A DNA stretch of 64,000 nt from a virus. The notes beneath the pieces are model-generated. The model was not told where the DNA came from. It did not search any database and saw only the letters and a program-made list of their open reading frames with translations. The translations under genes and the position numbers were made by a program. This document shows positions 18,084 through 42,310 of this stretch, in pieces; the stretch's first letter is position 1; the number at the start of each line of letters is the position of its first letter. The stretch lies in the UHGV virus genome UHGV-0218015. The stretch is one strand, 5' to 3'.

Positions 18084-18126
18084 TTATTACAACTGTTACC
18101 CTCATTGTGAGAAGTTTCACTTAACG
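18084..18126 (+). promoter_or_regulatory. degenerate copy of the conserved promoter-like motif plus hairpin
   Basis: ATTATTACAACTGTTACCCTCATTGTGAGAAGTTTCACTTAACG shares TTAC...GTGAGA...CACTTAACG with the 42262 copy. Confidence 0.3.
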
Positions 18127-18148
18127 TGCGTAAAAAGGTAAAACTATA

Positions 18149-18772
18149 ATGCTTAAGACAGTGTCTATTGATGGTCCTGACTTTTCTGGGAAATCAACGT
18201 TGTGTAAAATGGTAAAAGCGATGTTGGAATCCGCCGGATTAAAAGTTTGCGTTCGGAACCATCCGACATCTGAAACCGAGGCGGGCATTCGTGCACGCAG
18301 TTTGGTTGTACAGTCTGCTTCGAATACAAAAATTGCTGAAGCGATGTGTGATGATTTCCTTCACACGTTGGACCACGTTGTTGATGAATACGATGTTGTT
18401 ATTTTCGATCGCTTCTGTCCTTCAACGATTGTTTATCAGGGGACAGATGGTAAGGACGTGGTTTTCCAACGTAAGCTAACTCGTCATTTCCACACTCCTG
18501 ACCTTTATGTTTGGACAGATGTTGATTACCCAACAGCGTTAGCGCGATTTAAGAAACGTGTAGAAGAACAAGGTAAGAATTGGGATGATGAGGTACTTAC
18601 AGTTAAGTATCTAAAGGACAACCAATGTTGGGATGGTTTACGTGACCATTATCGATTCGCGCACCACATCCTAACAGAAGGCGGTTGTCTTCACACGTTA
18701 TTACCGGTAACGCAGAATGACGATTACCGTTTGAAAGCCGCAGAGATTGTTACGCACATTTTAGCGAACTAA
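18149..18772 (+). CDS. thymidylate kinase-like dNMP kinase (P-loop)
   Basis: Walker A SIDGPDFSGKST; DRFCPSTIVYQG and PDLYVWTDVD...ARFKKR parallel Tmk DRH..S..AYQG and lid regions (recalled alignment, not computed). Confidence 0.6.
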   Translation: MLKTVSIDGPDFSGKSTLCKMVKAMLESAGLKVCVRNHPTSETEAGIRARSLVVQSASNTKIAEAMCDDFLHTLDHVVDEYDVVIFDRFCPSTIVYQGTDGKDVVFQRKLTRHFHTPDLYVWTDVDYPTALARFKKRVEEQGKNWDDEVLTVKYLKDNQCWDGLRDHYRFAHHILTEGGCLHTLLPVTQNDDYRLKAAEIVTHILAN

Positions 18773-18779
18773 CCGCTTA

Positions 18780-18816
18780 GGTACCACCCAACGGTGGTAC
18801 CTATATTTTATTTTTT
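18780..18816 (+). terminator. rho-independent terminator
   Basis: Stem GGTACCACC / CAAC / GGTGGTACC followed by TATATTTTATTTTTT. Confidence 0.8.
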
Positions 18817-18860
18817 CTCAGATATATATTACTTAGGTGAGAGTTACAATTAACTCTTTA
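18815..18860 (+). promoter_or_regulatory. conserved phage promoter-like motif with downstream hairpin (copy 1)
   Basis: TTTTCTCAGATATATATTACTTAGGTGAGAG followed by hairpin GAGAGTTA-CAAT-TAACTCTT; near-identical motif at 37886 and 42258. Confidence 0.55.
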
Positions 18861-18891
18861 CACCGACTTGTTAACCTAAAGGAGTATTACC

Positions 18892-19251
18892 GTGGCTTAC
18901 AATCACAATTCCATCGTTCTGGCAAAACGTAAATTTGGCCTTCATTTGTCTTACGTAGTTTGTCATTTGACCACGAAAGACATTACCCAGCGTGAGCTTG
19001 CCCAGCTTGCGAAAGTTTCACAACCCGTTATCTCATCTATTAAGAACGAACGCGTAGAACGTTTAAGCTTGCCGATTATGATGAAAGTTGCTGATGCGAT
19101 TCGTCTGAAATATCAGATTAGTTTTAATTCCGTTAAGGGTCGTTGCTCAGTAACCGTTCACGTAGAGTCCGCATTGGACTACGTTGCAAACACGTCCATT
19201 AAACGTACCAAGAAGAATGTGCGTTTTATCACTAACACTGTAACACACTAA
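18892..19251 (+). CDS. helix-turn-helix (XRE/Cro-like) transcriptional regulator (119 aa), GTG start
   Basis: ITQRELAQLAKVSQPVISSIKN matches the HTH_XRE pattern; GGAGTATTACC-GTG RBS context. Confidence 0.5.
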   Translation: MAYNHNSIVLAKRKFGLHLSYVVCHLTTKDITQRELAQLAKVSQPVISSIKNERVERLSLPIMMKVADAIRLKYQISFNSVKGRCSVTVHVESALDYVANTSIKRTKKNVRFITNTVTH

Positions 19252-19272
19252 TCAACCTGAAGGAGTAATATC

Positions 19273-19929
19273 ATGGCACCGAAAACTAAAGAAACTGTAA
19301 AGAACGAGACTAAAGCCAACGAAGTTCAACCGGCTGCGAAGGTTGAACTTTTACCCTGCGTTAATGAAATAATTGGGGTGAAATTCTTAACTTTTAATCC
19401 GTATACTGACCTGGTTTTCGATTTTTATCAAGACCAGCCTTTCAACTTATTCACACTTGTCTGCACTTATAATGGCGACATTTTGGCGGTTGCGCCTGGC
19501 CTTAATAGAGACAAGTTACTTACAGGTACGGTTATTACTGAAATTCTCCTGCGGTTAATGCATAAGTTTGAAGGGCCTGAACTTGACAAAATCGGTGTTA
19601 AGTTAGCTGACCTACTAGTCAATGCTGCCGACTGGTTGAGTTTTAACCCTTCTATCTATTTCCATTTCAATACAAATATTCTTCACGCCGTAACAGACGA
19701 TGGTAAAAAGTATCGCATCTTAATTAAGGGTGGGGTGCAACAACCTTTGTTCTCTAGACAAAACTGCCATATTAAGTTTTCGCCTGACTTGGTAGAAGTT
19801 TACGGCCAGCGAGTAGCGACTGGCCACTACGAGGTCCATCTCAGATTTTTCAATTACCTGTATGAAAAATTAGGGAAAGCTGGCATGACACCCAATCTTG
19901 CTTTCACAAGCTCTGCCCCTTTTGCGTGA
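19273..19929 (+). CDS. hypothetical protein (218 aa)
   Basis: GAAGGAGTAATATC-ATG RBS; ORF followed by terminator. Confidence 0.5.
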   Translation: MAPKTKETVKNETKANEVQPAAKVELLPCVNEIIGVKFLTFNPYTDLVFDFYQDQPFNLFTLVCTYNGDILAVAPGLNRDKLLTGTVITEILLRLMHKFEGPELDKIGVKLADLLVNAADWLSFNPSIYFHFNTNILHAVTDDGKKYRILIKGGVQQPLFSRQNCHIKFSPDLVEVYGQRVATGHYEVHLRFFNYLYEKLGKAGMTPNLAFTSSAPFA

Positions 19930-19941
19930 TGTTTAATAATT

Positions 19942-19975
19942 GGGGAACTTCGGTTCCCCTTTCTTTTTTGTTTTT
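19942..19975 (+). terminator. rho-independent terminator
   Basis: Stem GGGGAAC / TTCG / GTTCCCC followed by TTTCTTTTTTGTTTTT. Confidence 0.8.
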
Positions 19976-20023
19976 ACAGCTTTAGCGTATTGTTTTGAGA
20001 CGACCTTTTAAGGAGTAATTAAC

Positions 20024-21022
20024 ATGGCTTTTAGGAAGACTATAGAACGTACCGCCACGGATTTAACAGTAGGTCGGTTAGCACGTAGAGATATTCGCAA
20101 CCCTCAACTTCAGGCTTGTTTATCTGGCCCTAACGGTGCGGTGATTCGTGAGGCGTTGTGCAATAGTGAACTGAATACGTTCTCTTTACAAAAAGGAAAA
20201 ACAATTCAAGGGTTTATCATCACAAAACACATTTACGGCGATCCAACGTTACACTGCTTGTATATGCATGAAATTGTACCAGGTTGTTTGAACAAACTGA
20301 ACCTACTACTGGTACTCGACTACACCGGTTTTACGTATCTTAATCGAATCGCCAGTGGTGTAGAAGAAATCTCTGAGCTTAATGACTTAGGATTTAGACA
20401 CACCCACACCACATACCGTTTAGGTACACGCTCGTTATTGGATATCGCTCTACCAACGAACGTGAAGAACATCTCTGGTGATTTTTATAAAGAGTTAACC
20501 GCTGCACAACGAGAACAGCTTATGTTGCTTTTAGGCGCGAGCGTAGTTGAAAACATCAACGCTGACCCTGTGGGCCGCTCACGACAAATCATGCCACAAG
20601 TCGAAACGTTGGTGGAGTTAGTACGTCACGTCAACCACCACACCTATGTTTGGATGGACGGCAACGATGTTGTGGGCGTGGTGCAAGTTAAATTGCGTAA
20701 TCTTAACGAGTGTGAATTAAAAGCCATTGCGGTAAGTGAAACACATCGGGGGCGTGGTATCGGACGGACTTTGTTATACCGTGCTCTGCAGATTGCATCG
20801 ACAACAGCGGCACCATTGGAGATAGGGTGTTTCAATAACAACCCTGCATTTAGACACCTGGTCGTCGAATTATTTAAATTTCGGTCCTACGAGTACGAAT
20901 TTGTTTTAGTGCGCGACGATGACGTCGTCAGTTGGGAGCGTCGGAAAAATCGTGTCGAGCTGGTGTTAGGCGACGAAGTATCATCGTTACAAGGCGGATA
21001 TAATGCGGAAACCAATTATTAA
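20024..21022 (+). CDS. protein with C-terminal GNAT acetyltransferase domain (332 aa)
   Basis: C-terminal IAVSETHRGRGIGRTLLYRAL (GNAT motif A); AAGGAGTAATTAAC-ATG RBS. Confidence 0.5.
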   Translation: MAFRKTIERTATDLTVGRLARRDIRNPQLQACLSGPNGAVIREALCNSELNTFSLQKGKTIQGFIITKHIYGDPTLHCLYMHEIVPGCLNKLNLLLVLDYTGFTYLNRIASGVEEISELNDLGFRHTHTTYRLGTRSLLDIALPTNVKNISGDFYKELTAAQREQLMLLLGASVVENINADPVGRSRQIMPQVETLVELVRHVNHHTYVWMDGNDVVGVVQVKLRNLNECELKAIAVSETHRGRGIGRTLLYRALQIASTTAAPLEIGCFNNNPAFRHLVVELFKFRSYEYEFVLVRDDDVVSWERRKNRVELVLGDEVSSLQGGYNAETNY

Positions 21023-21818
21023 GTGGATGGGTGGGAAAACACGTGTTTTAGGGGAATTACAAAAGGTCTTGCCTAAACGTACAACCTTTGTAGAACCGTT
21101 TGTGGGTGCAGGGTCTGTTTTCCTAAATACGAATTACAGCCGGTATATTTTATCGGATTCTAACCCTGATTTGATACGCTTACTTTGTGTTGCGCGTGAA
21201 CAGCCTGAAGAACTGATCGCTGCGTCGCAGCCGTTGTTCTTAGACGGTAATACTACTGTAAAGTATATGGAGCGTCGTGAGCTGTTTAATAGCGGTAAAT
21301 CGATGTCAGAAGTTGAGCGTGCTGCGATGTTTTTATACTTAATGCGTCACGGTTATAACGGTATGTGTCGCTATAACAGTAGCGGTGGGTTCAATGTTCC
21401 GTTTGGACGTTACCCGAATGGGGTTTATTATCCATTAGAAGAAATTCGTGACTGGGCTAAACGTTGTGCGGAAGTTGATTATCTGGAAATTGTTTGTGAG
21501 GACTTTCGTTCTGTATTAGCACGGACACCTGAGGATGCTGTGATTTATGCTGATCCTCCGTATATTCCGTTATCGGATACTGCGAAACATGCGCAATACC
21601 ACCGTAAAGAATTCTCACAAACGGATCATCGTGAATTGGCCAAGTTACTACAGCAGCAGGTGGAACGTGGCAACAGTGTCGTGTTGTCAAATGCAGACAC
21701 CCTACTCACCCGAGAAATTTATTACGGTTTTGAGTGGCGCAGTATTGAGGTTGGTCGCTATATGGGTGCGTCTGGCGCTACTCGGAAAACGGTGACTGAA
21801 TTACTGGGAGTGCTCTAA
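21003..21818 (+). CDS. dam: DNA adenine methyltransferase (Dam family, GATC N6-adenine MTase)
   Basis: KWMGGK, EPFVGAGSVFLNT (SAM-binding FxGxG), YNGMCRYN, NVPFGRY and DPPY catalytic motif, collinear with E. coli/T4 Dam. Confidence 0.9.
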   Translation: MRKPIIKWMGGKTRVLGELQKVLPKRTTFVEPFVGAGSVFLNTNYSRYILSDSNPDLIRLLCVAREQPEELIAASQPLFLDGNTTVKYMERRELFNSGKSMSEVERAAMFLYLMRHGYNGMCRYNSSGGFNVPFGRYPNGVYYPLEEIRDWAKRCAEVDYLEIVCEDFRSVLARTPEDAVIYADPPYIPLSDTAKHAQYHRKEFSQTDHRELAKLLQQQVERGNSVVLSNADTLLTREIYYGFEWRSIEVGRYMGASGATRKTVTELLGVL

Positions 21819-22591
21819 TGCGTATAGTGGATATTGACGATTATCGTAATGACCATTTAGCAATTGGTGTGGGTGGTAGAATAGTTTCGCTAACCCGTCT
21901 ACGAAAAGGGTTGATAGAAAAAGACATCATTCGCGAATCTGAAGATCCGACCTTTATCATTCTTTCGAACACGAATCAGCTGCAATGTGTCTTCTCCGGT
22001 CGCGCCGATGGTAAGATTTTCTACATGTCGGCAATCGTTGTGTTTGCGAAGAAGAAAATTAATTTCGCACAACTCAAACGTTTGTTAAATGTAGAGGTGT
22101 TTGATGTCACATACCCTGCCAATGACCTAAAACGTCGCGATCAGTTAATGGCGTTCTTGCGTATGCAGCCGTCGTTCATCGATTATGAGCTGACGTTTAC
22201 TGAAAAACCTGAAGTTCGCACCGATTTGCCTGATGTAGATGATATTGAATCTCTAACGTTAGAAGAAACGTTTACGATCACTAAGGTGGTTAATGTCAGC
22301 TTGGATACGCGCTGCCTGGAATTGTTAGCGATTGGTGCAGCAGAAGGTTTGTGCTGCCGTAAAGATGGTAAAGTTGAAGGTATCTTAGTCTATTCGAAAA
22401 TCAACGAAAAGACGTTTGCCACCGAAGGTTTCTTCTATAACGATTGTACTTACGGGAATGCGCTCTTGACCACGTACTACCGTATTGCGTATTTAAAGGG
22501 CGCAACCGTGCGTCTTACTTTTCCATATTCAGCACCTCCATCGATGCCTGGTGTTGAGGCAGAAGCATTAACTGGTCATTTTATCTTTTAA
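21818..22591 (+). CDS. hypothetical protein (257 aa)
   Basis: ATG overlaps dam stop (ATGA coupling). Confidence 0.5.
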   Translation: MRIVDIDDYRNDHLAIGVGGRIVSLTRLRKGLIEKDIIRESEDPTFIILSNTNQLQCVFSGRADGKIFYMSAIVVFAKKKINFAQLKRLLNVEVFDVTYPANDLKRRDQLMAFLRMQPSFIDYELTFTEKPEVRTDLPDVDDIESLTLEETFTITKVVNVSLDTRCLELLAIGAAEGLCCRKDGKVEGILVYSKINEKTFATEGFFYNDCTYGNALLTTYYRIAYLKGATVRLTFPYSAPPSMPGVEAEALTGHFIF

Positions 22592-22600
22592 GGACATTGA

Positions 22601-22828
22601 ATGGAAATCAAACGTATTGTAACCAAAGACAAAAAGATTGCTTATGTTGCAGGTGATAACGAGTTCTCGGCGGTTATTAATGCTGAGAACGTGCTGATTA
22701 TCGGTTATCCAGGTAAAGATATTACTCGCAGTCATCAACGTGTGATTGACAAACTTATCGCCAAAGCAAAAGCGCGTGATGGTGTTGGTTCAGCACAAAC
22801 CCATACCGGGTTAACGTTGGTACTCTAG
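22601..22828 (+). CDS. hypothetical protein (75 aa)
   Basis: Short ORF in array. Confidence 0.4.
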   Translation: MEIKRIVTKDKKIAYVAGDNEFSAVINAENVLIIGYPGKDITRSHQRVIDKLIAKAKARDGVGSAQTHTGLTLVL

Positions 22829-22866
22829 CCAGCAGGTAATATGACCTCTTAACTGGAGACTTAGAG

Positions 22867-23373: not shown

Positions 23374-23378
23374 ACCTT

Positions 23379-23416
23379 CCCTCTCTCCGTTTGGAGAGAG
23401 GGAGTATTTATTTTTA
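23379..23416 (+). terminator. rho-independent terminator
   Basis: Stem CCCTCTCTCC / GTTT / GGAGAGAGGG followed by AGTATTTATTTTT. Confidence 0.8.
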
Positions 23417-23471
23417 CGCTTTCGTGTCTAATTATGCACACGTAAACAAAATTAATTGAGGAACAGCTTAA

Positions 23472-24075: not shown

Positions 24076-24089
24076 TGGCTGTCTAAAAA

Positions 24090-24130
24090 ATTTAAGATAT
24101 ATTTCATCTATGTGAGAATTCTCACTTAAC
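24090..24130 (+). promoter_or_regulatory. variant copy of the conserved promoter-like motif plus hairpin
   Basis: AAGATATATTTCATCTATGTGAGAATTCTCACTTAAC: perfect palindrome GTGAGAA/TTCTCAC, 20 nt upstream of gene 24149. Confidence 0.45.
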
Positions 24131-24148
24131 TAAATGGAGTAATCTAAA

Positions 24149-24418
24149 ATGGCTAAGATCTATATTGTTGAAAAACGTGCAGGTAATGTACTTTCTTATT
24201 ACGAAGAAGGTAAACCTGAGAAAATCAAAACACTCAAACTCGACGGTTTCAATGTGAAGAGTTTACGTAAGGGCGTGAAGATTACCTTTAAAGGTCTGGT
24301 TCGCGCAGGTAACTTACAGATTGTTAAGGACGATGGTACGATGGTTGCATTAGCACCTGTCAGTGCTGCGAAAACGACAGCAGGTCGTGGCTGCTACGGT
24401 AGCAGTCGTAAGATTTAA
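24149..24418 (+). CDS. hypothetical basic protein (89 aa)
   Basis: TAAATGGAGTAATCTAAA-ATG; ORF followed by terminator. Confidence 0.5.
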   Translation: MAKIYIVEKRAGNVLSYYEEGKPEKIKTLKLDGFNVKSLRKGVKITFKGLVRAGNLQIVKDDGTMVALAPVSAAKTTAGRGCYGSSRKI

Positions 24419-24426
24419 GCAGTGCC

Positions 24427-24466
24427 CCTCTCTCCTAACGGAGAGAGGGTACTTTTATTTTTCTTC
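24427..24466 (+). terminator. rho-independent terminator (same stem sequence as 23379)
   Basis: Stem CCCTCTCTCC / TAAC / GGAGAGAGGG followed by TACTTTTATTTTTCTT. Confidence 0.8.
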
Positions 24467-24475
24467 GAGGTGTAT

Positions 24476-25483: not shown

Positions 25484-25528
25484 TCTTTTTTACAACTGTG
25501 GCTATTTTAATGATTAGGAGAAAAGAAA

Positions 25529-27164: not shown

Positions 27165-27166
27165 AC

Positions 27167-28464: not shown

Positions 28465-28490
28465 TTTGATATTTAGCTGTAAAATGACTG

Positions 28491-33758: not shown

Positions 33759-33762
33759 AGAT

Positions 33763-33790: not shown

Positions 33791-33799
33791 GGAGGATTT

Positions 33800-34345: not shown

Positions 34346-34355
34346 GGACAGAAAG

Positions 34356-34586: not shown

Positions 34587-34598
34587 CAGGAGATCGCG

Positions 34599-35105: not shown

Positions 35106-35139
35106 TTATTTTCAACTGAAAGCGGTTGAAAATAATCGT

Positions 35140-35149
35140 GGGGGGGGGG
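35140..35149. repeat. G10 homopolymer in the intergenic region upstream of gene 35204
   Basis: AATCGTGGGGGGGGGGTGAATG read directly. Confidence 0.9.
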
Positions 35150-35203
35150 TGAATGTTTTTTAGTCAATATTTTATGACCCCCAACCGTAGGAGGTAAACA
35201 TAC

Positions 35204-35716
35204 GTGGAAAAATTCACACCAGATTTATCACTAACTTCACTTAACATGGTTATTTCACTGGTTAACCATGACCTCCAACTTGACTTGCAAGAGAACGAGG
35301 TTGAAGTCAGTGACGTAAAAACCAGTGATGAAATGGATCGTGACTCCACTGCCATTGTAAAGATTAAACGTCCTGGAAACAGAACGTTGCAAATCTACTA
35401 CAACCGTTTAACCGCAGAGCGGTGGTTAAACCAACAACCTATTCTGGTAAAAGTAAGAGGTGAAGGGTTTAATGCACACGATCTTATCGAATCCGTCAAT
35501 GCCGTTTGTGGTGCTAACTTACAAACCGACGATTTAACCGACCAGTCGTTCACGGTAGGTAAAGACGCGGTAACGCTTAGCATCGCTCCGAATTCCATCG
35601 CTTATAAAGGACAGTTCTCCGTGGTGGTTTTCGGCCCAGATGAAACACCGTGTGGCATCGGTGATGATTCTGTCGTGTTGACGTTTGACAATAAAATCTT
35701 AACTTTTGGAGAGTAG
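35204..35716 (+). CDS. tail-fibre-associated accessory protein (170 aa, GTG start), paralog of 28553..29113
   Basis: TAGGAGGTAAACATAC-GTG RBS; sequence parallels the 28553 gene; directly upstream of the tailspike gene. Confidence 0.5.
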   Translation: MEKFTPDLSLTSLNMVISLVNHDLQLDLQENEVEVSDVKTSDEMDRDSTAIVKIKRPGNRTLQIYYNRLTAERWLNQQPILVKVRGEGFNAHDLIESVNAVCGANLQTDDLTDQSFTVGKDAVTLSIAPNSIAYKGQFSVVVFGPDETPCGIGDDSVVLTFDNKILTFGE

Positions 35717-35719
35717 TAG

Positions 35720-37840
35720 ATGAGTCAGCCAATTGGAAAGAAACGTATCCATGAACTCGACAATTTCTCTGGCGATCTCAAAGGTGCGTTAGTTCTTCTT
35801 TCTAAGGAAGAAAAAGAATATAAAATTGATATTGCAAAACTTCAGGGCACGACGGAGCCGGAGTATTACTTCGTGATTCCTATAGCCGGGCAATCTAATG
35901 CGATGAGTTATGGTGAAGGGTTGCCTCTACCGGCGACGTTGGACGCTCCCGATCCGCGAATTAAACAGATGGCGCGCCGTGCGAAGGTAACGCCTAATGG
36001 GGCTGATTGTAAATATAACGACGTCATTCCAGCGGATCACTGTCTGCACGACGTGCAAGATATGTCCAAATACTCGCATCCCAATGCCAATTTGAGCAAA
36101 GGTGAATACGGATGTGTGGGTCAAGGTCTACATATCGCGAAGCGTCTTCTCCCGTATATTCCTAAGAACGCCGGTATCTTACTAGTACCCTGCGCACGCG
36201 GCGGTTCTGCTTTCACGGGTGGTGCAGAAGGTACCTTCGATGAAGCCACAGGAGCCACTGAGTCGTCAATGCTATGGGGGGTGGAGAAACCGCTTTATAA
36301 AGATTTAGTTAGCCGGACCAAAAAAGCTCTAGAAGTTAATCCTAAAAATAAACTCTTGGCTGTAGTGTGGATGCAGGGAGAGTATGATCTGACTAAAGTA
36401 CAATACGCACAACAACCAGCGTTATTTAACGCAATGGTAGAGCGTTTCCGAACTGATCTCTCTGACCATCTCTCTCAGATGCCCGAGTACGACACCGCCG
36501 AAGTACCATGGATCTGCGGGGACACTACCTATTATTGGAAGGAAAAATATCCTGCCCAATATGAAACCGTATACGGTAATTATCGTAACAATGAACAAAA
36601 AAATATCTTTTTTGTTCCATTCATGTACGACGATAATGGCCAACGTGTACCGACTAATGATCCCACTGACGATCCTGATATCACTGGTGCGGCCTATTAC
36701 GGTGCTGCCTCCCGTACTGTTAAAAACTGGACGTCTGAAACAAGGAATAGCCATTTCAGTTCTTGGGCACGACGCGGTATTATCTCAGAGAGAATAGCTG
36801 CCGAGATATTATCAAGAACAGCGATTGGTGCAATGTTCCTGACGAAGAACGACACTAAGAGCTCCAAAGACAATAAGAATGTGGTAAGAAGCTATACCCC
36901 ATTAGTAGAGTCTGTGGGTTATAACGGACGTCGTGGGGATGGTTCCCTGAAAGGGCAAGGTTGGAACAATATCGTTGATTGTAACGTAACCGTGCAAGAT
37001 TCTGAGGATGGAAACGGGCATTTCGTCGAATTAAGAAAGGCTGTAAAGATGAAACCTTGGAATGTAACTAAGTCAATGACATCTGCTGCGGACATGATAC
37101 GTTACGGTGGACGTCTGACCGTTACTTTTAGACTAAAAGGTGATTTAGCAGCAGATCGTTTCGGATTAGGACTTTATTGGCGTATTTCCGCGTCCGACCT
37201 ACCTTCTGGTACTACATTTGCTGACGCTGGTGTGGCTGAGACGAACCCGTACCTAATGTCTTTTTTCTTACAGACCGACGCTACGAATCTTAATCTGATG
37301 CATCATAAAAAGCAAAATGCGAAATTAGGAACTTTTGGTGCGTACGATAATAACTGGCATACGCTTGAAATCATTTATCCTGGTGCCAATAAAACCACAG
37401 TCACACCTGTGCTGGACGGTACGAATGGTACTCCATTTGATCTGGCGAACAGTCCAGCTAAGACCGATTTGAACGAATTGGTTCTGACGGATATTACGAA
37501 AGTTACTGCCTATGATATCGATATTTCTAAGTTTGAGATCTCGGTCAATCGTGATTCTGGTAGCATAGTGTTATCTGAGGAAGATGTGTCGTCTTATGTG
37601 TATTTCCCACCCACCAACCGTGGCGGCCAACTTACTATTCCTGATCTAGAATATAGTGTGGGCAGAAATATTCAGATCGTGGCAAATAAGGCTGGTAAGA
37701 TCACCGTTAAACCGGAAAATTCAAACGTTCTCATCACTCCAAAGAGTGGGACAGAAGGTCTTGCCAAACCCATTGATACCAATGAAAGTATTACGCTAAT
37801 GCAGATTGGTTCCGATGGTAAAAGCTGGGTAGTTATTTAA
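35720..37840 (+). CDS. tailspike/tail fibre (706 aa) with putative SASA/SGNH-type carbohydrate esterase domain
   Basis: N-terminus MSQPIGKKRIHELDNFSGDLKGALVLLSKEEKEYK parallels the 1479-aa fibre N-terminus; FVIPIAGQSNAMSYGEG resembles the GQSN(M) active-site motif of sialate O-acetylesterase-like esterases. Confidence 0.6.
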   Translation: MSQPIGKKRIHELDNFSGDLKGALVLLSKEEKEYKIDIAKLQGTTEPEYYFVIPIAGQSNAMSYGEGLPLPATLDAPDPRIKQMARRAKVTPNGADCKYNDVIPADHCLHDVQDMSKYSHPNANLSKGEYGCVGQGLHIAKRLLPYIPKNAGILLVPCARGGSAFTGGAEGTFDEATGATESSMLWGVEKPLYKDLVSRTKKALEVNPKNKLLAVVWMQGEYDLTKVQYAQQPALFNAMVERFRTDLSDHLSQMPEYDTAEVPWICGDTTYYWKEKYPAQYETVYGNYRNNEQKNIFFVPFMYDDNGQRVPTNDPTDDPDITGAAYYGAASRTVKNWTSETRNSHFSSWARRGIISERIAAEILSRTAIGAMFLTKNDTKSSKDNKNVVRSYTPLVESVGYNGRRGDGSLKGQGWNNIVDCNVTVQDSEDGNGHFVELRKAVKMKPWNVTKSMTSAADMIRYGGRLTVTFRLKGDLAADRFGLGLYWRISASDLPSGTTFADAGVAETNPYLMSFFLQTDATNLNLMHHKKQNAKLGTFGAYDNNWHTLEIIYPGANKTTVTPVLDGTNGTPFDLANSPAKTDLNELVLTDITKVTAYDIDISKFEISVNRDSGSIVLSEEDVSSYVYFPPTNRGGQLTIPDLEYSVGRNIQIVANKAGKITVKPENSNVLITPKSGTEGLAKPIDTNESITLMQIGSDGKSWVVI

Positions 37841-37845
37841 TTTAA

Positions 37846-37889
37846 ACCGTAGGATGGACTTAGTCCATCCTACGGTTTTTATATTTTTT
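37846..37889 (+). terminator. rho-independent terminator
   Basis: Long palindromic stem CCGTAGGATGGAC...GTCCATCCTACGG followed by TTTTTATATTTTTT. Confidence 0.85.
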
Positions 37890-37936
37890 CTCAGATATAT
37901 ATTACCTAGGAGAGAGTGAAATTTACGTTCACTCCA
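37886..37936 (+). promoter_or_regulatory. conserved phage promoter-like motif with downstream hairpin (copy 2)
   Basis: TTTTCTCAGATATATATTACCTAGGAGAGAG followed by hairpin GAGTGAA-ATTTACG-TTCACTC (stem differs from copy 1 but pairing is preserved). Confidence 0.55.
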
Positions 37937-37963
37937 TTAGTTATAGCCGAAAAGGAGGATTAG

Positions 37964-38815
37964 ATGTCACACCCGTATTATCTCCCGCGCATTCTAGCAA
38001 ATAGGGACCCCAGTTATTACTACGAACAAACAAAGGGATTTGTTGAACGACTTTATATTCGTGAATTTAATACCGATGAAATGACAGATGGCCAGTATCT
38101 AGAGTATCTAAAAGACCTTTACGCTTTTTCAAAATCGAATAAAGGTAGGTTTGGACGTTACTCAGTCATTAGAGATGATGAATATCGTCATTTAGCTAAG
38201 CCTGTTACTTACCCTATTGTTACACGCGCCTATACATCGGATAGGCAATATATCGCTGAGCTAAAATTTCCATTGCGGATAGACGGGCCCCAAATTAGCG
38301 CTATAGAAGTAGAGATTCAACCAATTGCTGAAGACTATATTGAAGACTACTTCAAGAAAGCTAAAGACGTACTCGAGGAGGGTTTAAGCTACTCTGAAGA
38401 AGGAACGATCTGTCTTCTCTCGTTACTCACGAAGACTTATATCACAGCAAATTTCCGTATCTCCGATTCCAGTAACTACAATACACTTACCCCCTCTAAA
38501 ACAAAACCTGTTTATTGGGACGATCGGCTAGTCGACAGACAACGCTGGCTTACTATCTTAGATAGAGTAAAATTCGAGCCACCTAAACACACCGAAGACG
38601 ATTTTATTTTATTGCACAACTTCGAACCAATTTATATTCCAACGCATTTTGATCAAGCCTTACGTCATCGGTTGAAGTATGTGTTGGAATTACGGTACGG
38701 GAAGATAAATGGGCTGACCTGTTCTGGTGAATTGGGTGAAGAAGAACGCGAGAAGATAAAAATCGTGTATGATAAGTTGGTTGAAGATTACATTAAGAAG
38801 GAAGGGCAATTATGA
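37964..38815 (+). CDS. hypothetical protein (283 aa)
   Basis: AAAAGGAGGATTAG-ATG RBS downstream of promoter motif. Confidence 0.55.
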   Translation: MSHPYYLPRILANRDPSYYYEQTKGFVERLYIREFNTDEMTDGQYLEYLKDLYAFSKSNKGRFGRYSVIRDDEYRHLAKPVTYPIVTRAYTSDRQYIAELKFPLRIDGPQISAIEVEIQPIAEDYIEDYFKKAKDVLEEGLSYSEEGTICLLSLLTKTYITANFRISDSSNYNTLTPSKTKPVYWDDRLVDRQRWLTILDRVKFEPPKHTEDDFILLHNFEPIYIPTHFDQALRHRLKYVLELRYGKINGLTCSGELGEEEREKIKIVYDKLVEDYIKKEGQL

Positions 38816-39255
38816 AACCAAATACTACTAATGGCATTATGTTGCTTTGTGATTCTGAAACGTTAGCAAACCGTATTCGTGGTTTGATGCAAGTACGTTG
38901 GCAGCAGAAAGTTCTCGTGGATTACGATGCACCGTTTGTTCACATTACCTGGTTGCCAGAAGCTAGTGATTTCAAAGAACGTATAACCACGAGAAGAATT
39001 AAAGAATGGTTATCGGCAATCATTAATAAACAGATTACCGTTATCAATTTCCAACTTTTCGGTACCGCTGAAGAACATGAAATCTTGAAACAGTGTTTAA
39101 GAGACTTGGGTCTTTCCTCTTCTGTTCGTGGTAGCTGCTATACGGCTTACTTTATCGGTTCACTTGAACTGTTTAAGAATACACTAATGCTTCAACTAAA
39201 AGACGACTACAAACTTTTAGATAAAATCGATTTCGAATTCCCAGGCATGATTTAA
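38812..39255 (+). CDS. hypothetical protein (147 aa)
   Basis: ATGA overlap coupling. Confidence 0.5.
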   Translation: MKPNTTNGIMLLCDSETLANRIRGLMQVRWQQKVLVDYDAPFVHITWLPEASDFKERITTRRIKEWLSAIINKQITVINFQLFGTAEEHEILKQCLRDLGLSSSVRGSCYTAYFIGSLELFKNTLMLQLKDDYKLLDKIDFEFPGMI

Positions 39256-39266
39256 GGAACTATAAC

Positions 39267-40109
39267 ATGTTACGGTTCGAACTCACCGAAGAAGAAAAAG
39301 TCATCAGCAGGTTTAAGATCTCCCCTATCCCCACTGAAGAACAAATTAAGGAAATCGCTGAGTTACAAAAAACGTACACCTTTTACTATAAAGTTAAATC
39401 GGAATCGTTTAACATTTTCTGGGTAGAAGGTGATGTCGATTTTCCTAACAAACTCATTAGTGCGATTACGGATATTTTAGTACGATCTGTTGAGGTGTCT
39501 AAAGATCCAGAATTACACGATCAAATGACTTGTGGGCTAAAGGACAAGCCAACTACGAAAGGCAACGCTTACTACACAAAGGAGTTCCCACTTACCCCCA
39601 AACAAGCAGATAAAATTGGACCAATACTATACCATTTTTTCAGCGATAAATTCACGTATGTGATTGAAGACAACATGCTTAAAGTGAGCTATGAATATAC
39701 TGCTTATCGATCTCCTATAAATCAACTATTGAAAGATATAGAGGGCGAAAATATTCTGCTATTTACCGTTGAAAACATTACAGAAGCCGGTGCTGATGAG
39801 CTTATCAGTGTTGTGAAAGGTGAATACAAGCTCGCCGAAATAATGATTTATCAAAGCAGATATCTTAAAGGTGACTTGCATCTCCTGATCAAAAACGAAC
39901 CACGACTTCTTAAAACTTTGGAAACCCATGCGAAGAAAATTAAGAGAGACAGTGAATCTTTTAAACACGTTCTCGAGAAATACGAGAAAGAAGTCAGCGA
40001 ACGCCTTTCACGCCACCTTTTTGGGGAGTTCGAAAATCACATTGACAAATACGCCCAGTTGTTTGATAAGTTTTGTAACGAGATGAGAGAAATTCGAAAT
40101 CTCAAATAA
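39267..40109 (+). CDS. hypothetical protein (280 aa)
   Basis: AAGGAACTATAAC-ATG. Confidence 0.5.
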   Translation: MLRFELTEEEKVISRFKISPIPTEEQIKEIAELQKTYTFYYKVKSESFNIFWVEGDVDFPNKLISAITDILVRSVEVSKDPELHDQMTCGLKDKPTTKGNAYYTKEFPLTPKQADKIGPILYHFFSDKFTYVIEDNMLKVSYEYTAYRSPINQLLKDIEGENILLFTVENITEAGADELISVVKGEYKLAEIMIYQSRYLKGDLHLLIKNEPRLLKTLETHAKKIKRDSESFKHVLEKYEKEVSERLSRHLFGEFENHIDKYAQLFDKFCNEMREIRNLK

Positions 40110-40151
40110 CGAAGGCTTAATCACACCACCATTTACCTAAAGGAGCATTAA

Positions 40152-40667
40152 ATGTCAGTAAATATTAACATGAATCTTTATACTAAACGTGAACGTCAGA
40201 TTCTGGCGAATCAACCTGGTGTTACGACTATCGACGGTAAACCTATTGACCGTTTAAAAGTTATCGTTGCGCGAAATTGTCATGAACACGATTGGGACAT
40301 CACTTACTTCCGTTGTTGTTCGGTCGCAAACGCGCTTACTCAACTCTCTAACTACCACTCAGGACCGCTATTAAAAGACTGGGTTTGGTTAGTGCCTAGA
40401 ACACCCTCAGCAATTGAGTATCCCGCTGGACTAGTTTATATTCGACCTGTCGCTTATCCAGAGCGTCTGAAAGAATATCTTGAAGTTATCTGGAACCGTC
40501 CTCGTAAAGAGCTGGTGACGATTATTAATTTACTGCAGCAGATCGAAATCCCTGGCGTTTCGAATTTGAAACTCACGTCTCGCGATATTAACCAGGCTTA
40601 CTGGGAACTGGAGTGGACAGAACCGAAATTCGAAAACACTAACCGTATTTTCTTGCACCGGGGGTAA
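40152..40667 (+). CDS. hypothetical protein (171 aa)
   Basis: CCTAAAGGAGCATTAA-ATG conserved RBS context. Confidence 0.5.
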   Translation: MSVNINMNLYTKRERQILANQPGVTTIDGKPIDRLKVIVARNCHEHDWDITYFRCCSVANALTQLSNYHSGPLLKDWVWLVPRTPSAIEYPAGLVYIRPVAYPERLKEYLEVIWNRPRKELVTIINLLQQIEIPGVSNLKLTSRDINQAYWELEWTEPKFENTNRIFLHRG

Positions 40668-40669
40668 AA

Positions 40670-40951
40670 ATGTTAGATTGGTTGTTGGGTTTAATTAACT
40701 CACGTCAACAGGAGCTTTATAAAGAAAACACGCGATTACGGCAGGAGCTTAGTAACAATCGTCAAACCAAACGACAATTAATTCGGGTGGTAAAACAACA
40801 GGCGCGTTGTATACGTGATATCGATTATCAGTATCACCGTCTGAATACCTTAGACCCAACAACAAAAGCCCTCGGTGGAACAATCGGACACGCACGGAAA
40901 GTCAGTCACGATGCGTTAGTTCGATTAGATACAATAGAAGAGAAACTGTGA
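40670..40951 (+). CDS. hypothetical protein (93 aa)
   Basis: ORF coupled 2 nt after upstream stop. Confidence 0.45.
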   Translation: MLDWLLGLINSRQQELYKENTRLRQELSNNRQTKRQLIRVVKQQARCIRDIDYQYHRLNTLDPTTKALGGTIGHARKVSHDALVRLDTIEEKL

Positions 40952-40957
40952 TTAGCT

Positions 40958-40980
40958 CTCCCTCGGGAACACCGAGGGAG
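40958..40980 (+). promoter_or_regulatory. GC-rich stem-loop without T-run at intergenic junction (possible RNA processing or translational control element)
   Basis: Stem CTCCCTCGG / GAACA / CCGAGGGAG, 5 nt upstream of the GTG start of the next gene. Confidence 0.3.
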
Positions 40981-40985
40981 ATAAG

Positions 40986-41384
40986 GTGATTTACATGATA
41001 CGTTTATTTTACTTAAAAAGGCGTTTGTCATTAAAAGCCCAACTGTTTGTTAACGAGAAAGTTAAAAACTGGCTGTGCGGTAAAAGGGTACAATATGTCG
41101 TTAAAGAAGGCGACTGGTATACGGAGGTTGTGACTTCCCCTAACGGTGAACTTATAAACGTTACTATTCGTGACGTTATGGTTAAGGTTGGTAGGGGTGG
41201 CGGTCGGTTGTTTGAATCGGAAACTATAAGAGTCGCTGCTAAACAATTGAAAGATGGTCGAGTTTTATTCAATGTTACCGCCCAGAAATACTACGACAAT
41301 TTATTCGAGTGTCAACGAGCAATGGACAGAATGACCCGTGAGATGCGAAGAATGCACATTACGGAGATCACAATAGGAGTTTAA
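40986..41384 (+). CDS. hypothetical protein (132 aa)
   Basis: GTG start after AAGG; ATG at 40995 is an alternative. Confidence 0.45.
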   Translation: MIYMIRLFYLKRRLSLKAQLFVNEKVKNWLCGKRVQYVVKEGDWYTEVVTSPNGELINVTIRDVMVKVGRGGGRLFESETIRVAAKQLKDGRVLFNVTAQKYYDNLFECQRAMDRMTREMRRMHITEITIGV

Positions 41385-41695
41385 TGATGGAAAATAAAAT
41401 CGCGAACACATCGGCACCTGAGAACATTGTCAATTATATTCTCAGTGGCGGGTTATTAGAAGACAACAAAGAAACGTGCGATAAACTCGTTTCTCAACTA
41501 CTGCCTATTCGTTCAGAATACTGCGAAATCGTTATCTTAGGTTCCGAGTATTGTGTACGCTCTTACTGCCGACGTTTCGAAGCTTTACGCGTTCCACGTA
41601 CGTTAGGCGGCGTAATACTTTTAGTCTCTAACTTCCACAGTGCACACGTTCGTGTTGCAACCTGGATTGCAAACGGTGGCGATAATGGTTTTTAA
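41384..41695 (+). CDS. hypothetical protein (103 aa)
   Basis: ORF in array. Confidence 0.45.
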   Translation: MMENKIANTSAPENIVNYILSGGLLEDNKETCDKLVSQLLPIRSEYCEIVILGSEYCVRSYCRRFEALRVPRTLGGVILLVSNFHSAHVRVATWIANGGDNGF

Positions 41696-41981
41696 ACTAA
41701 TTCGACTATTTAAACGTAAGAAATGTCCTGTCTGCGAAATTAATGAAAAGATTATTGCTAAGCAAGACGAGCTAATCAAGCAACAAGATAAGTTGCTCAC
41801 TGAAATGGGCGAACGCTATTTTAAACTTTGTGCTATTACCGAACTGATTAGTGAAGGTGTGTTAACGAAAGACGGTGGGTTAGAGTTGGTCAAGAAGGCA
41901 ACGATTCACTGTCGCCCTGAAGTAGAAAAATATAAACTTGAAGTGAAACGTGAAATGTGGGAGATCATTAATGAAGCGTGA
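41685..41981 (+). CDS. hypothetical protein (about 98 aa; ATG 41685 preferred), C-P-V-C motif
   Basis: ATG at 41685 overlaps upstream stop; the track ORF from 41640 overlaps the previous gene by 56 nt. Confidence 0.4.
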   Translation: MVFKLIRLFKRKKCPVCEINEKIIAKQDELIKQQDKLLTEMGERYFKLCAITELISEGVLTKDGGLELVKKATIHCRPEVEKYKLEVKREMWEIINEA

Positions 41982-42252
41982 AACGGTTGTATTTCGTAGT
42001 AATGGTGATGTGGTTTTGTATCGTGGTAAGAAACGTATTCGTACGTTAGAATACCGAGAAGCAAAACGTTTCGTTGAAGAGTGTGCGTGGTTAATGCATT
42101 ACGAAGGGAACTATCGCGCCATCTTAGAAGCACCGCGTTTAGAACGTGCAGTTGCGCAGATGGCAATAGGTAATCCTAAGAACTGTTACCTGGCCCGTAA
42201 GCCCAAATACCTACAGCGTGTCTCGCTAGGCAGTTTTATTGCGGGTTTTTAA
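41950..42252 (+). CDS. hypothetical protein (100 aa)
   Basis: ORF overlapping upstream gene end. Confidence 0.4.
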   Translation: MKCGRSLMKRETVVFRSNGDVVLYRGKKRIRTLEYREAKRFVEECAWLMHYEGNYRAILEAPRLERAVAQMAIGNPKNCYLARKPKYLQRVSLGSFIAGF

Positions 42253-42257
42253 TAAAA

Positions 42258-42310
42258 ATATTTTCAGATATATATTACCTAGGTGAGAGTTCAGTTACTC
42301 TCACTTAACG
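42258..42310 (+). promoter_or_regulatory. conserved phage promoter-like motif with downstream hairpin (copy 3)
   Basis: ATTTTCAGATATATATTACCTAGGTGAGAG followed by hairpin GTGAGAG-TTCAGTTA-CTCTCAC, then CTTAACG. Confidence 0.55.

What the first reader, a model, noticed from the sequence alone, without database searches (positions are those of the whole stretch)
18084..42310. Conserved 20-25-nt promoter-like motif followed by a hairpin whose stem sequence varies but pairing is preserved
TTTTCTCAGATATATATTAC(C/T)TAGG occurs at 18819, 37889 and 42261, in two cases right after a strong terminator, and each is followed by a stem-loop: GAGAGTTA/TAACTCTT, GAGTGAA/TTCACTC and GTGAGAG/CTCTCAC. A variant at 24094 (AGATATATTTCATCTATGTGAGAATTCTCAC) and a degenerate copy at 18084 share the GTGAGA...CACTTAACG part. 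Conservation of the upstream motif with compensatory changes in the stem argues for a phage-specific promoter (possibly for a phage sigma factor or RNAP) with a structured 5' transcript end acting in stability, antitermination or RNase processing.
Basis: seen in the sequence. Interest (0 to 1): 0.7.

Follow-up and report, generated by a model that had tools for sequence, protein, structure and literature searches.

The report
Jumbo-phage early promoters with 5′ hairpins
The repeated motif is the early promoter of a giant (phiKZ/SPN3US-like) phage, read by the RNA polymerase that the phage carries in its virion. In this phage group each copy is followed by a small hairpin that sits at the predicted first base of the messenger RNA; the promoter class is known, but I found no description of the hairpin.

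Summary
TTTTCTCAGATATATATTACYTAGG occurs at 18813, 37886 and 42259 (0 expected by chance). All three copies are intergenic and co-oriented with the downstream genes, and two lie directly after strong terminators.

The window is a new SPN3US/phiEaH2-like jumbo phage; its RNAP β-like protein is 74–78% identical to theirs. The core AGATATATATTAC-(6N)-G matches the experimentally mapped virion-RNAP early promoters of AR9 (AAATATATATTAT-(6N)-G+1) and the TATATTAC-(6N)-G sites of phiKZ. So these are early promoters of a known class, with predicted start sites at G18839, G37912 and G42285.

The hairpin is real. In 38 copies from SPN3US, Erwinia phages and metagenomic relatives, 92% of stem cells pair (74% in shuffles). 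Six of 8 stem pairs show changes on both sides. G:U outnumbers A·C 33 to 4, so the sense strand folds.

The hairpin is specific to this clade: absent at 9 of 9 AR9 early starts tested, present at only 2–3 of 8 phiKZ sites. It is therefore not needed for promoter recognition in general. Its most likely role is protecting early mRNAs from 5′-end-dependent decay, which is inferred, not shown.

The copy at 24094 is a diverged relative. The one at 18084 shares only the hairpin and TCACTTAAC part.

The parts
18778..18803 (+). Intrinsic-terminator-like hairpin (11 bp, 6 G-C pairs) with a T-run. It ends the thymidylate-kinase gene and lies directly upstream of promoter P1.
   Evidence: thymidylate kinase assignment
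18804..18838 (+). Early promoter P1, positions -35 to -1. AT/T-rich upstream part plus core AGATATATATTAC-TTAGGT.
   Evidence: position-weight matrix 57 bits; covariance model 67 bits, E = 2.7e-13. Orthologous to the SPN3US site upstream of gp101.
18839..18858 (+). Predicted start site G18839 and 5'-terminal hairpin H1: GAGAGTTA-CAAT-TAACTCTT, 8 bp including a terminal G:U.
   Evidence: start site inferred from the AR9/phiKZ spacing
18859..18891 (+). Unpaired leader with a Shine-Dalgarno sequence (ACACCGACTTGTTAACCTAAAGGAGTATTACC). It is conserved with the SPN3US gp101 leader. GTG start at 18892.
18892..19929 (+). P1 transcription unit: an HTH DNA-binding protein (18892-19251) and a 218-aa protein with no family match (19273-19929). 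A terminator at 19942-19959 closes the unit.
37844..37878 (+). Strong terminator-like hairpin (16 bp, 8 G-C pairs) with a T-run, directly upstream of promoter P2.
37877..37911 (+). Early promoter P2, positions -35 to -1. The 25-mer is 37886-37910.
   Evidence: 52 bits; 40 bits, E = 8e-7
37912..37935 (+). Predicted start site G37912 and hairpin H2: stem GAGTGAA/TTCACTC at 37914-37934, plus the G37912-C37935 pair.
37964..42252 (+). P2 operon of small genes of unknown function. The first gene (37964-38815, 283 aa) is an ORFan that the closest metagenomic relative lacks.
42250..42284 (+). Early promoter P3, positions -35 to -1. The 25-mer is 42259-42283, with 2 mismatches in the T-rich part. No upstream terminator was detected.
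   Evidence: 65 bits; 49.5 bits
42280..42307 (+). Predicted start site G42285 and hairpin H3. GAGAGT-TCAGTT-ACTCTC is at 42285-42302. The pairing extends to 11 bp, TAGGTGAGAGT/ACTCTCACTTA, which crosses the predicted start site.
   Evidence: -15.3 kcal/mol, z = -5.8
42334..45341 (+). P3 operon of genes of unknown function. The first is ATG 42334-42828, 164 aa, with no PHROG match.
24090..24131 (+). Diverged copy: AAGATATATTTCATCTATGT-GAGAATTCTCAC. It matches the core at 19 of 23 positions. The aligned +1 is G24114 and the palindrome GTGAGAATTCTCAC is at 24112-24125. It contains TATG. It sits upstream of an 89-aa gene (24149-24418) that is closed by a terminator at 24426-24449.
   Evidence: 22 bits; 19 bits, E = 0.095
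18104..18125 (+). Relic or partial relative: ATTGTGAGAAGTTTCACTTAAC upstream of the thymidylate-kinase gene. It shares the start-proximal part, the hairpin and TCACTTAAC, but has no AT-rich core at the right spacing. It is not detected by the matrix or the covariance model.
   Evidence: fold not better than shuffles
1..1470 (+). 3' part of a phiKZ-type multisubunit RNAP beta-like subunit gene. This identifies the genome as one that encodes its own RNA polymerases.
   Evidence: 77.7% aa identity to phiEaH2; annotated 'putative RNA polymerase beta subunit' in Asesino and Wellington

Best explanation
The three strong copies are early promoters of a new SPN3US/phiEaH2-like jumbo phage.

**Proposed mechanism.**
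- The multisubunit RNA polymerase injected with the DNA (vRNAP) recognises an element of about 41 bp. This consists of an AT/T-rich upstream part plus the core AGATATATATTAC centred near -13.
- Transcription starts at the invariant G seven bases after ATTAC: G18839, G37912 and G42285.
- The promoters drive short operons of an HTH regulator and small proteins of unknown function.
- The transcript begins GAGAG... and its first 18-24 nt fold into a 6-9 bp stem-loop with no, or at most two, unpaired 5' nucleotides.
- A leader of about 30 nt and a Shine-Dalgarno sequence follow; the 5' UTR is 49-53 nt.

**Proposed role of the hairpin.** It most likely makes the triphosphorylated 5' end inaccessible to RppH and to the RNase E 5' sensor. 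That would prolong the life of the first phage mRNAs in an enterobacterial host.

**Shown.** The motif, its spacing, its intergenic and oriented placement, its homology to mapped vRNAP promoters, the conservation and covariation of the hairpin, and its sense-strand bias.

**Inferred.** The exact start site, the early timing, the use of vRNAP, and the stabilising role. My probabilities are roughly 0.85 for 'vRNAP early promoter', 0.75 for 'the hairpin acts in RNA', and 0.45 for 'its role is mRNA stabilisation'.
For: **Genome identity**
- The window is syntenic with SPN3US (thymidylate kinase followed by an HTH regulator).
- Its RNAP beta-like protein is 74-78% identical to those of SPN3US-like and phiEaH2-like phages.
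- SPN3US carries five annotated RNAP beta/beta' fragments.

**Promoter identity**
- AR9 early promoters with dRNA-seq and primer-extension start sites read aaatatatattat-(6N)-G (Table S2 of PMC5312081; text).
- phiKZ has TATATTAC-(6N)-G in front of early genes, including gp54. That site carries a mapped early primary start site according to PMC8244752.
- The review PMC7598289 states that every RNAP-encoding jumbo phage has such an AT-rich motif centred near -10 upstream of early operons, and that it proved to be the early promoter wherever transcripts were profiled.
- In an 8-kb query, the cassette is the only DNA that matches other phages at the nucleotide level (33 records).

**Census**
- The window has 4 matrix hits, all intergenic and on the + strand.
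- SPN3US has 6 strong and 3 weak sites. All are intergenic and on the + strand. Eight are about 50-135 nt, and one about 230 nt, upstream of a start codon. Two weak ones precede RNAP-subunit-like genes.

**Hairpin**
- The anchored stem averages 6.2 bp against 3.95 bp in shuffles.
- Summed folding energy gives z = -10.3.
- 92.3% of cells pair, 6 of 8 pairs change on both sides, and 0 of 500 shuffles reach the observed values.
- The sense strand is more stable than the antisense strand in 32 of 35 copies, P = 3e-6.
- G:U 33 against A·C 4.
- An orthologous compensatory change is seen: GAGAG/CTCTT against GAGCG/ACGCT.
- 5'-terminal stem-loops are established stabilisers in E. coli (ompA, papA; references 92-95 in PMC3997798).
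Against: - No start-site or expression data exist for this phage or for any SPN3US-like phage in the literature I could search.
- In 8 of 22 copies the pairing continues 4-6 bp upstream of the predicted +1 into the invariant TTAGGT (null 1.25). This includes P3. It cannot form in a transcript that starts at that G. The start may therefore be heterogeneous, or a read-through RNA or DNA strand may be what folds.
- AR9 early transcripts lack the hairpin (0 of 9), as do most phiKZ ones. A stabilising hairpin is thus not a general need of vRNAP transcripts, although Pseudomonas also has RNase E.
- The individual window hairpins are weak (-6.5 to -8.4 kcal/mol; leader z = -1.7 to -2.2).
- Many copies in the covariation set are orthologues, and the alignment was fitted to the structure, so the statistics are inflated to some degree.
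Confidence: 0.7

Rival explanations
1. The inverted repeat acts in DNA as part of the promoter. This could resemble the hairpin promoters of the phage N4 virion RNAP, or it could be a non-template-strand hairpin or cruciform that overlaps the start site and controls opening or shut-off of the promoter.
For: In 8 of 22 copies the pairing crosses the predicted start site into -6..-1. The extended P3 stem is very stable (-15.3 kcal/mol, z = -5.8). A virion RNAP that uses DNA hairpins has a precedent in N4 (own knowledge; cited).
Against: Homologous vRNAP promoters in AR9 (0 of 9) and most in phiKZ work without any such repeat. The repeat lies downstream of the recognition core, not upstream of the start as in N4. 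G:U outnumbers A·C 33 to 4; this excludes the template strand and a double-stranded palindrome, though not the non-template DNA strand. Loop lengths vary from 3 to 12 nt.
Confidence: 0.1
2. The terminator-promoter-hairpin-leader cassette also serves as a patch of homology for modular gene shuffling, as PeSL cassettes do in T4-type phages. This would be in addition to its promoter role, not instead of it.
For: The cassette is an island of about 80-90% nucleotide identity between otherwise non-alignable flanks. In the closest relative (locus L043) the 830-bp ORFan directly after the P2 leader is missing, and the upstream terminator and upstream gene differ. Paralogous cassettes cross-match in BLAST. 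The downstream genes are ORFans. PeSLs are described in PMC2839356 and PMC4122927.
Against: Only one indel junction was examined. Conservation of the cassette is expected from promoter function alone. There is no evidence of exchange between cassettes or of circular excision products.
Confidence: 0.25
3. The hairpin followed by U residues is a promoter-proximal attenuator, or it defines very short RNAs.
For: In the copies whose stem stops at +1, the 3' arm is always followed by T, often TT or TTT. One SPN3US copy (start site 165706) has a genuine G-C-rich terminator 25 nt after the start. 5'UTR-derived small RNAs made by premature termination are reported in phage 201phi2-1 (PMC11512511).
Against: The stems are short and AT-rich, and the U-runs are only 2-4 nt. 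Every copy is followed at a fixed distance by a Shine-Dalgarno sequence and a gene. An obligatory terminator at +20 of all early operons would defeat their purpose.
Confidence: 0.07
4. The motif is a host sigma-70 promoter, or an operator for the HTH protein encoded downstream of P1, rather than a phage-RNAP promoter.
For: TATATT resembles a -10 hexamer, and P3 gives a 9 of 12 sigma-70-like match. ACCTAGGT in the C-variant is a palindrome. An HTH gene follows P1.
Against: P1 and P2 have no -35 match. Sigma-70-like hits in these regions are no more frequent than in shuffles. Conservation extends over about 41 bp with a fixed +1 G, as in mapped vRNAP promoters. The T-variant (ACTTAGGT) breaks the palindrome. 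phiKZ-type phages transcribe independently of host RNAP (PMC7598289).
Confidence: 0.04

Closest known systems
Virion-RNAP early promoters of phiKZ-related jumbo phages (phiKZ, AR9, phiR1-37, 201phi2-1)
   Same: - The AT-rich core is highly conserved: TATATTAC in phiKZ, AAATATATATTAT in AR9, AGATATATATTAC here.
- The spacing is the same: 6 N, then a G start.
- The upstream region is T/AT-rich.
- The sites are intergenic, upstream of operons of small hypothetical genes.
- The genome encodes split beta/beta' RNAP subunits.

   Different: - The start-proximal sequence YTAGGT-GAGAG is also nearly invariant.
- Nearly every copy is followed by a hairpin anchored at the predicted +1. AR9 lacks this (0 of 9) and phiKZ mostly lacks it (2-3 of 8).
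- There are far fewer copies per genome: 6-9 in SPN3US, against 28-32 in phiKZ and 41 in AR9.
- No start site or timing data exist for this clade.
5'-terminal stabilising stem-loops of E. coli mRNAs (ompA, papA; Emory, Bouvet and Belasco)
   Same: A simple hairpin lies at the very 5' end of the mRNA with 0-2 unpaired nucleotides. The stem sequence is free to vary. The Shine-Dalgarno sequence is left unpaired downstream (PMC3997798).
   Different: The function has not been tested here. The stems are short and AT-rich. In a third of the copies the pairing runs upstream of the predicted 5' end.
PeSL (promoter-early stem-loop) cassettes of T4-type phages
   Same: Both are composite intergenic cassettes that combine a terminator hairpin with a conserved early promoter. 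Both are repeated through the genome, lie next to ORFans, and sit at indel boundaries between close relatives.
   Different: PeSL promoters are sigma-70-type and are read by host RNAP. The PeSL stem-loop is the upstream terminator, whereas the distinctive hairpin here is downstream of the start. Recombination at the cassettes has not been shown here.
Hairpin promoters of the coliphage N4 virion RNAP
   Same: In both, an injected virion RNA polymerase transcribes early genes, and an inverted repeat is associated with each promoter (own knowledge; reference seen).
   Different: The N4 vRNAP is a single-subunit enzyme. It recognises a DNA hairpin (5-7 bp stem, 3-nt loop) upstream of the start. 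Here the recognition core is a linear AT-rich sequence, and the repeat lies at or after the start with loops of 3-12 nt.

Membership tests
phiKZ-type jumbo-phage vRNAP early promoter | The genome encodes phiKZ-type split multisubunit RNAP beta/beta' homologues. | tested here: met
   Window ORF 1-1470 is 77.7% identical to the phiEaH2 protein and 77.3% to the Asesino protein annotated as RNAP beta subunit. The syntenic SPN3US genome carries five annotated RNAP fragments.
phiKZ-type jumbo-phage vRNAP early promoter | A highly conserved AT-rich element of about 10-13 nt lies near -10, related to TATATTAC / ATATATTAT. | tested here: met
   AGATATATATTAC is invariant in the 3 strong copies. It matches the AR9 consensus at 11 of 13 positions and contains the phiKZ TATATTAC.
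phiKZ-type jumbo-phage vRNAP early promoter | Transcription starts at a conserved purine (G) 6 N downstream of the element. | not testable with these tools
   An invariant G is present at exactly that spacing in all 35 aligned copies. No RNA 5'-end data exist for this clade.
phiKZ-type jumbo-phage vRNAP early promoter | The sites are intergenic, co-oriented with and upstream of early operons (small hypothetical genes, nvRNAP subunits). | tested here: met
   4 of 4 window sites and 9 of 9 SPN3US sites are intergenic and co-oriented. Downstream genes are an HTH protein and proteins of unknown function. Weak SPN3US sites precede gp22-23 and gp76-77, which are RNAP-like.
phiKZ-type jumbo-phage vRNAP early promoter | Transcription begins immediately after infection and is independent of host RNAP and of new protein synthesis. 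| not testable with these tools
   This requires infection experiments with rifampicin and chloramphenicol.
5'-terminal stabilising stem-loop (ompA type) | The hairpin begins within about 0-2 nt of the mRNA 5' end. | tested here: inconclusive
   If the start is the predicted G, the criterion is met. With the stem start restricted to +1..+3, it begins at +1 in 27 of 35 copies, +2 in 2 and +3 in 6. However, the start site is inferred, and 8 of 22 stems extend upstream of it.
5'-terminal stabilising stem-loop (ompA type) | The hairpin lengthens mRNA half-life in an RNase E / RppH-dependent way. | not testable with these tools
   This requires half-life measurements on stem mutants.
PeSL cassette (T4-type phages) | A near-consensus sigma-70 early promoter. 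| tested here: not met
   P1 and P2 give no sigma-70-like match, and P3 gives only 9 of 12. Hit counts equal those in shuffles.
PeSL cassette (T4-type phages) | An adjacent stem-loop acts as terminator for upstream transcription. | tested here: met
   Present at P1 and P2 in the window. Terminator hairpins or their T-runs lie upstream of most copies in relatives. Absent at P3.
PeSL cassette (T4-type phages) | The cassettes flank ORFan indels between close relatives and recombine with each other. | tested here: inconclusive
   One clear case: the 830-bp ORFan after P2 is absent in L043, and the flanks differ on both sides. No systematic test was done.
N4-type hairpin promoter | A DNA hairpin with a 3-nt loop upstream of the start site is the recognition element. 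| tested here: not met
   The repeat lies at or downstream of the predicted start. Loops are 3-12 nt. Homologous promoters in AR9 lack any repeat.
Any curated RNA family (Rfam 15) | A match at gathering score. | tested here: not met
   0 matches in the whole window.

The most novel reading that the evidence does not exclude
The hairpin at the start site may be an obligatory, clade-specific cis element of SPN3US-like early transcription units whose role goes beyond passive stabilisation. Two possibilities are not excluded. It could be a tag by which the first mRNAs, made by vRNAP inside the early infection vesicle, are handed to the cytoplasm or to ribosomes. Or, given the copies in which pairing crosses the start site, it could be a DNA or nascent-RNA switch that shuts early promoters off at the early-to-middle transition.
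Probability: 0.1. Interest if true: 0.6.

Novelty: new variant of a known kind. Interest (0 to 1): 0.38.

Why it matters
**Immediate use.** The result gives a ready annotation rule for a large, poorly annotated group of jumbo phages that infect Salmonella, Erwinia, E. coli, Proteus and related hosts. A roughly 41-bp early-promoter model plus the hairpin marks the early operons and predicts their 5' ends to the base.

**Open question it touches.** The virion RNA polymerase of phiKZ-like phages has no sigma factor, and how it recognises promoters is still unknown. This clade conserves the initially transcribed GAGAG as well, and couples it to a hairpin. It therefore offers a compact, naturally varied set of templates for in vitro work.

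**If the hairpin stabilises mRNA.** It would show how a phage protects its very first mRNAs before any phage-made inhibitor of host RNases exists.

**Caveat.** The promoter class itself is already established, so this is a refinement rather than a new system.

Tried and rejected
1. **IMG/VR scan with AGATATATATTACNTAGG.** About 90 of roughly 120 hits have N = G. They lie inside a conserved coding gene of unrelated small viral contigs (...YTEDPNFEDIYYVGE...). This is coincidence and I discarded them.
2. **Is the hairpin a general feature of vRNAP early transcripts?** No. AR9 shows 0 of 9 at experimentally mapped starts. phiKZ shows 2-3 of 8.
3. **Do stems that cross the start site occur where no upstream terminator exists, so that read-through RNA would fold?** There is no such correlation; several have upstream terminators.
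4. **Host sigma-70 promoter.** Scan hits are at shuffle level.
5. **Rfam.** Nothing found.
6. **Is the 18084 site a promoter copy?** Neither the matrix nor the covariance model detects it, and its fold is no better than shuffles. I keep it only as a partial relative.
7. **Literature.**
   - A full-text search for TATATTAC was swamped by unrelated papers.
   - Searches for SPN3US with promoter, hairpin or start site found no description of these promoters or the hairpin.
   - Ceyssens 2014 (phiKZ transcription) was not held. Lavysh 2016, which predicted the motifs per phage, I did not try to retrieve.
   - I therefore cannot rule out that the hairpin has been noted somewhere.
8. **RNase III processing site.** Rejected because the stems are only 6-9 bp, or 15 bp at most.

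Full report
**1. Observation**

The 25-mer TTTTCTCAGATATATATTACYTAGG occurs exactly at 18813-18837 and 37886-37910, and with two mismatches at 42259-42283. All three are on the + strand, and none of 100 shuffles gave a match.

The three copies lie between genes in a window that is 92% coding. Two follow strong terminator-like hairpins with T-runs, at 18778-18803 and 37844-37878. Each copy is followed by a stem-loop whose 5' arm starts in the conserved GAGAG.

A position-weight matrix built from related copies finds exactly four sites in the window:
- The three strong ones score 52-65 bits.
- The diverged site reported at 24094 scores 22 bits. The best score in 100 simulated windows was 1.1 bits.

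The site at 18084 is not detected. It shares only ATTGTGAGAA...TCACTTAAC with the copies at 24094 and 42285.

**2. What the genome is**

Megablast of 8 kb around the first copy against 50,697 phage records matched nothing except the cassette itself, window 18810-18888. That stretch hit 33 jumbo phages of Salmonella, Erwinia, E. coli and Proteus, SPN3US and its relatives among them.

In SPN3US the match lies between the thymidylate kinase gene (gp100) and a transcriptional regulator (gp101). The window has the same neighbours.

The truncated first ORF of the window is a phiKZ-type RNAP beta-like subunit. It is 77.7% identical to the phiEaH2 protein and 74% to those of SPN3US-like phages. [quoted passage not shown]

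**3. What the motif is**

The review PMC7598289 makes two statements:
- Every RNAP-encoding jumbo phage has a conserved AT-rich motif of about 10 nt, centred near -10, upstream of early operons.
- Wherever transcripts were profiled, this motif proved to be the early promoter used by the virion RNAP.

The AR9 study gives the consensus AAATATATATTAT-(6N)-G(+1). It lists 39 start sites mapped by dRNA-seq, a subset checked by primer extension. It also notes a conserved start 6 nt downstream of the element in phiKZ and phiR1-37.

In the first 50 kb of phiKZ I found eight TATATTA[C/T]-(6N)-G sites, seven of them with TATATTAC. One lies in front of gp54, for which an early primary start site is reported.

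The window's AGATATATATTAC-(YTAGGW)-G has the same core, spacing and G. I therefore predict starts at G18839, G37912 and G42285, giving 5' UTRs of 53, 52 and 49 nt.

A whole-genome census of SPN3US finds six strong and three weak sites. All are intergenic and on the + strand; most are about 50 nt upstream of a start codon, and the weak ones lie further away (135 and 233 nt). They precede gp5, gp22, gp55, gp66, gp76, gp101, gp135, gp180 and gp249.

The genes behind the window's promoters are an HTH protein and small proteins without known function. This matches what is reported for early promoters of phage 201phi2-1.

**4. The hairpin**

An exact-pattern scan of IMG/VR returned two classes of hits. 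One is a coding-sequence coincidence, which I discarded. The other is about 32 distinct jumbo-phage copies. They come from:
- SPN3US and phiEaH2;
- Erwinia phages of 229-245 kb;
- three metagenomic contigs that are close relatives of the window.

Results across these copies:
- Folding +1..+40 gives a hairpin that starts at position 1 in most of them.
- Against shuffles of the downstream part, the anchored stem averages 6.2 bp versus 3.95 bp, and 60% of copies reach P ≤ 0.05.
- Over 32 copies that are less than 75% identical to each other, the summed folding energy is -193.9 versus -85.7 ± 10.5 kcal/mol (z = -10.3).
- A covariance model aligned 38 copies. On that alignment 92.3% of stem cells pair, against 74.4% in shuffles and 40-55% with slid partners.
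- Six of eight pairs have changes on both sides, and 0 of 500 shuffles reach any observed measure. The caveats are that the alignment is fitted to the structure and that many rows are orthologues.
- The sense strand folds better than the antisense strand in 32 of 35 copies (P = 3e-6).
- G:U cells outnumber A·C cells 33 to 4.

What is conserved is therefore a structure of the transcript-sense strand. It is not a double-stranded palindrome or a structure of the template strand.

**5. Limits on the hairpin's role**

- At nine experimentally mapped AR9 early starts there is no 5' hairpin at all.
- Of eight phiKZ sites, only two or three have one. The gp54 promoter is among them.

The hairpin is thus an addition specific to the SPN3US-like clade, not a requirement for vRNAP promoter recognition.

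Its position at the very 5' end, its variable stem sequence and the unpaired Shine-Dalgarno sequence downstream fit the classical 5'-terminal stabilising stem-loops of E. coli mRNAs. Those block 5'-end-dependent decay (references 92-95 in PMC3997798). I consider this the most likely function, at about 0.45. It is inference only.

**6. An unexplained complication**

- In 12 of 22 well-formed copies the stem stops exactly at the predicted +1. The next 3' base is always T, opposite T at -1.
- In 8 of 22 copies, representing about five or six independent lineages, pairing continues 4-6 bp into the invariant TTAGGT at -6..-1. The null expectation is 1.25 copies (P < 0.0005).
- P3 in the window is one of these. 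Its 11-bp stem at 42280-42307 folds at -15.3 kcal/mol (z = -5.8).
- This explains the shared TCACTTAAC: it is the G:U-tolerant complement of TTAGGTGA.

Such pairs cannot form in an RNA that starts at +1. Either starts are heterogeneous, or read-through RNA or the non-template DNA strand folds. I found no link with the absence of an upstream terminator.

**7. The cassette as a unit**

Most copies in relatives have a terminator or its T-run upstream and a semi-conserved leader downstream. The unit is therefore terminator, promoter, hairpin, leader, Shine-Dalgarno sequence.

Compared with the closest metagenomic relative (locus L043), P2 is an island of 86% identity:
- The upstream terminator and the upstream gene differ.
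- The 830 bp right after the leader (window 37951-38779), which hold the 283-aa ORFan, are absent from the relative.

This resembles the behaviour of PeSL terminator/promoter cassettes of T4-type phages. Those carry sigma-70 promoters, however, and I examined only one junction.

**8. Comparison and verdict**

The promoter belongs to a known, experimentally established class. The defining sequence, context and genome features are met; start site and timing are not testable here.

The hairpin at the start site is consistent across the clade and covaries. I found no description of it in the literature available to me, although key papers (Ceyssens 2014; Lavysh 2016, which I did not try to retrieve) could not be read. 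Rfam has no matching family.

I rate the finding as a new variant of a known kind, of moderate interest.

Noticed in passing
window 37951-38779 (compared with locus L043 2572-2671): The 283-aa ORFan directly behind promoter P2, with its own Shine-Dalgarno sequence, is an ~830-bp insertion or deletion relative to the closest metagenomic relative. In that relative the same leader is joined directly to the homologue of the gene at 38812. The upstream terminator and upstream gene also differ.
   Followed up: partly
SPN3US (JN641803.1) 165706-165760; locus L125 15982-16057: One SPN3US early promoter is followed, after its 5' hairpin, by a G-C-rich intrinsic terminator (GGCTACCTTCGGGTAGCC plus a T-run) about 25 nt from the predicted start, ahead of gp180. 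This is a candidate ~50-nt small RNA or an attenuator.
   Followed up: no
SPN3US 4446, 15633, 72505 and 72679-72717; loci L022 2571-2617 and L023 2611-2656: There is a weaker promoter subclass with AGATAGATATTAY or AGATTGATATTAT in place of AGATATATATTAC. Two SPN3US sites of this subclass precede RNAP-subunit-like genes (gp22-23, gp76-77). The window's 24094 variant and SPN3US site 15633 both contain TATG, the phiKZ late-promoter start motif.
   Followed up: partly
IMG/VR loci L010-L020, L031-L038, L044-L062 and others: The 18-mer AGATATATATTACGTAGG occurs in about 90 small viral contigs inside a conserved coding sequence (...YTEDPNFEDIYYVGEVK...). These are unrelated to jumbo-phage promoters. 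It is a reminder that exact-pattern scans need a context check.
   Followed up: partly
window 35106-35203: The intergenic region holds an AT-rich inverted repeat (TTATTTTCAAC...GTTGAAAATAA), then a run of ten G (35140-35149) and a CCCCC further on, upstream of the GTG start at 35204. The homopolymer could be a slippage-prone tract.
   Followed up: no
window 51898-57091, minus strand: Three paralogous radical-SAM proteins lie in a row (440, 312 and 304 aa, all PHROG 1802). They match the radical-SAM cluster of SPN3US (gp163-164).
   Followed up: no
window 38000-46000: The operons behind P2 and P3 are markedly more AT-rich (G+C 0.38-0.42) than the structural-gene region at 28-34 kb (0.46-0.49).
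   Followed up: no
phiKZ (NC_004629.1) 45568-45610: The phiKZ early promoter in front of the nuclear-shell gene gp54 is followed by a hairpin anchored at +1 (-8.8 kcal/mol; 0 of 300 shuffles as stable). Most other phiKZ early sites in the first 50 kb have none.
   Followed up: partly
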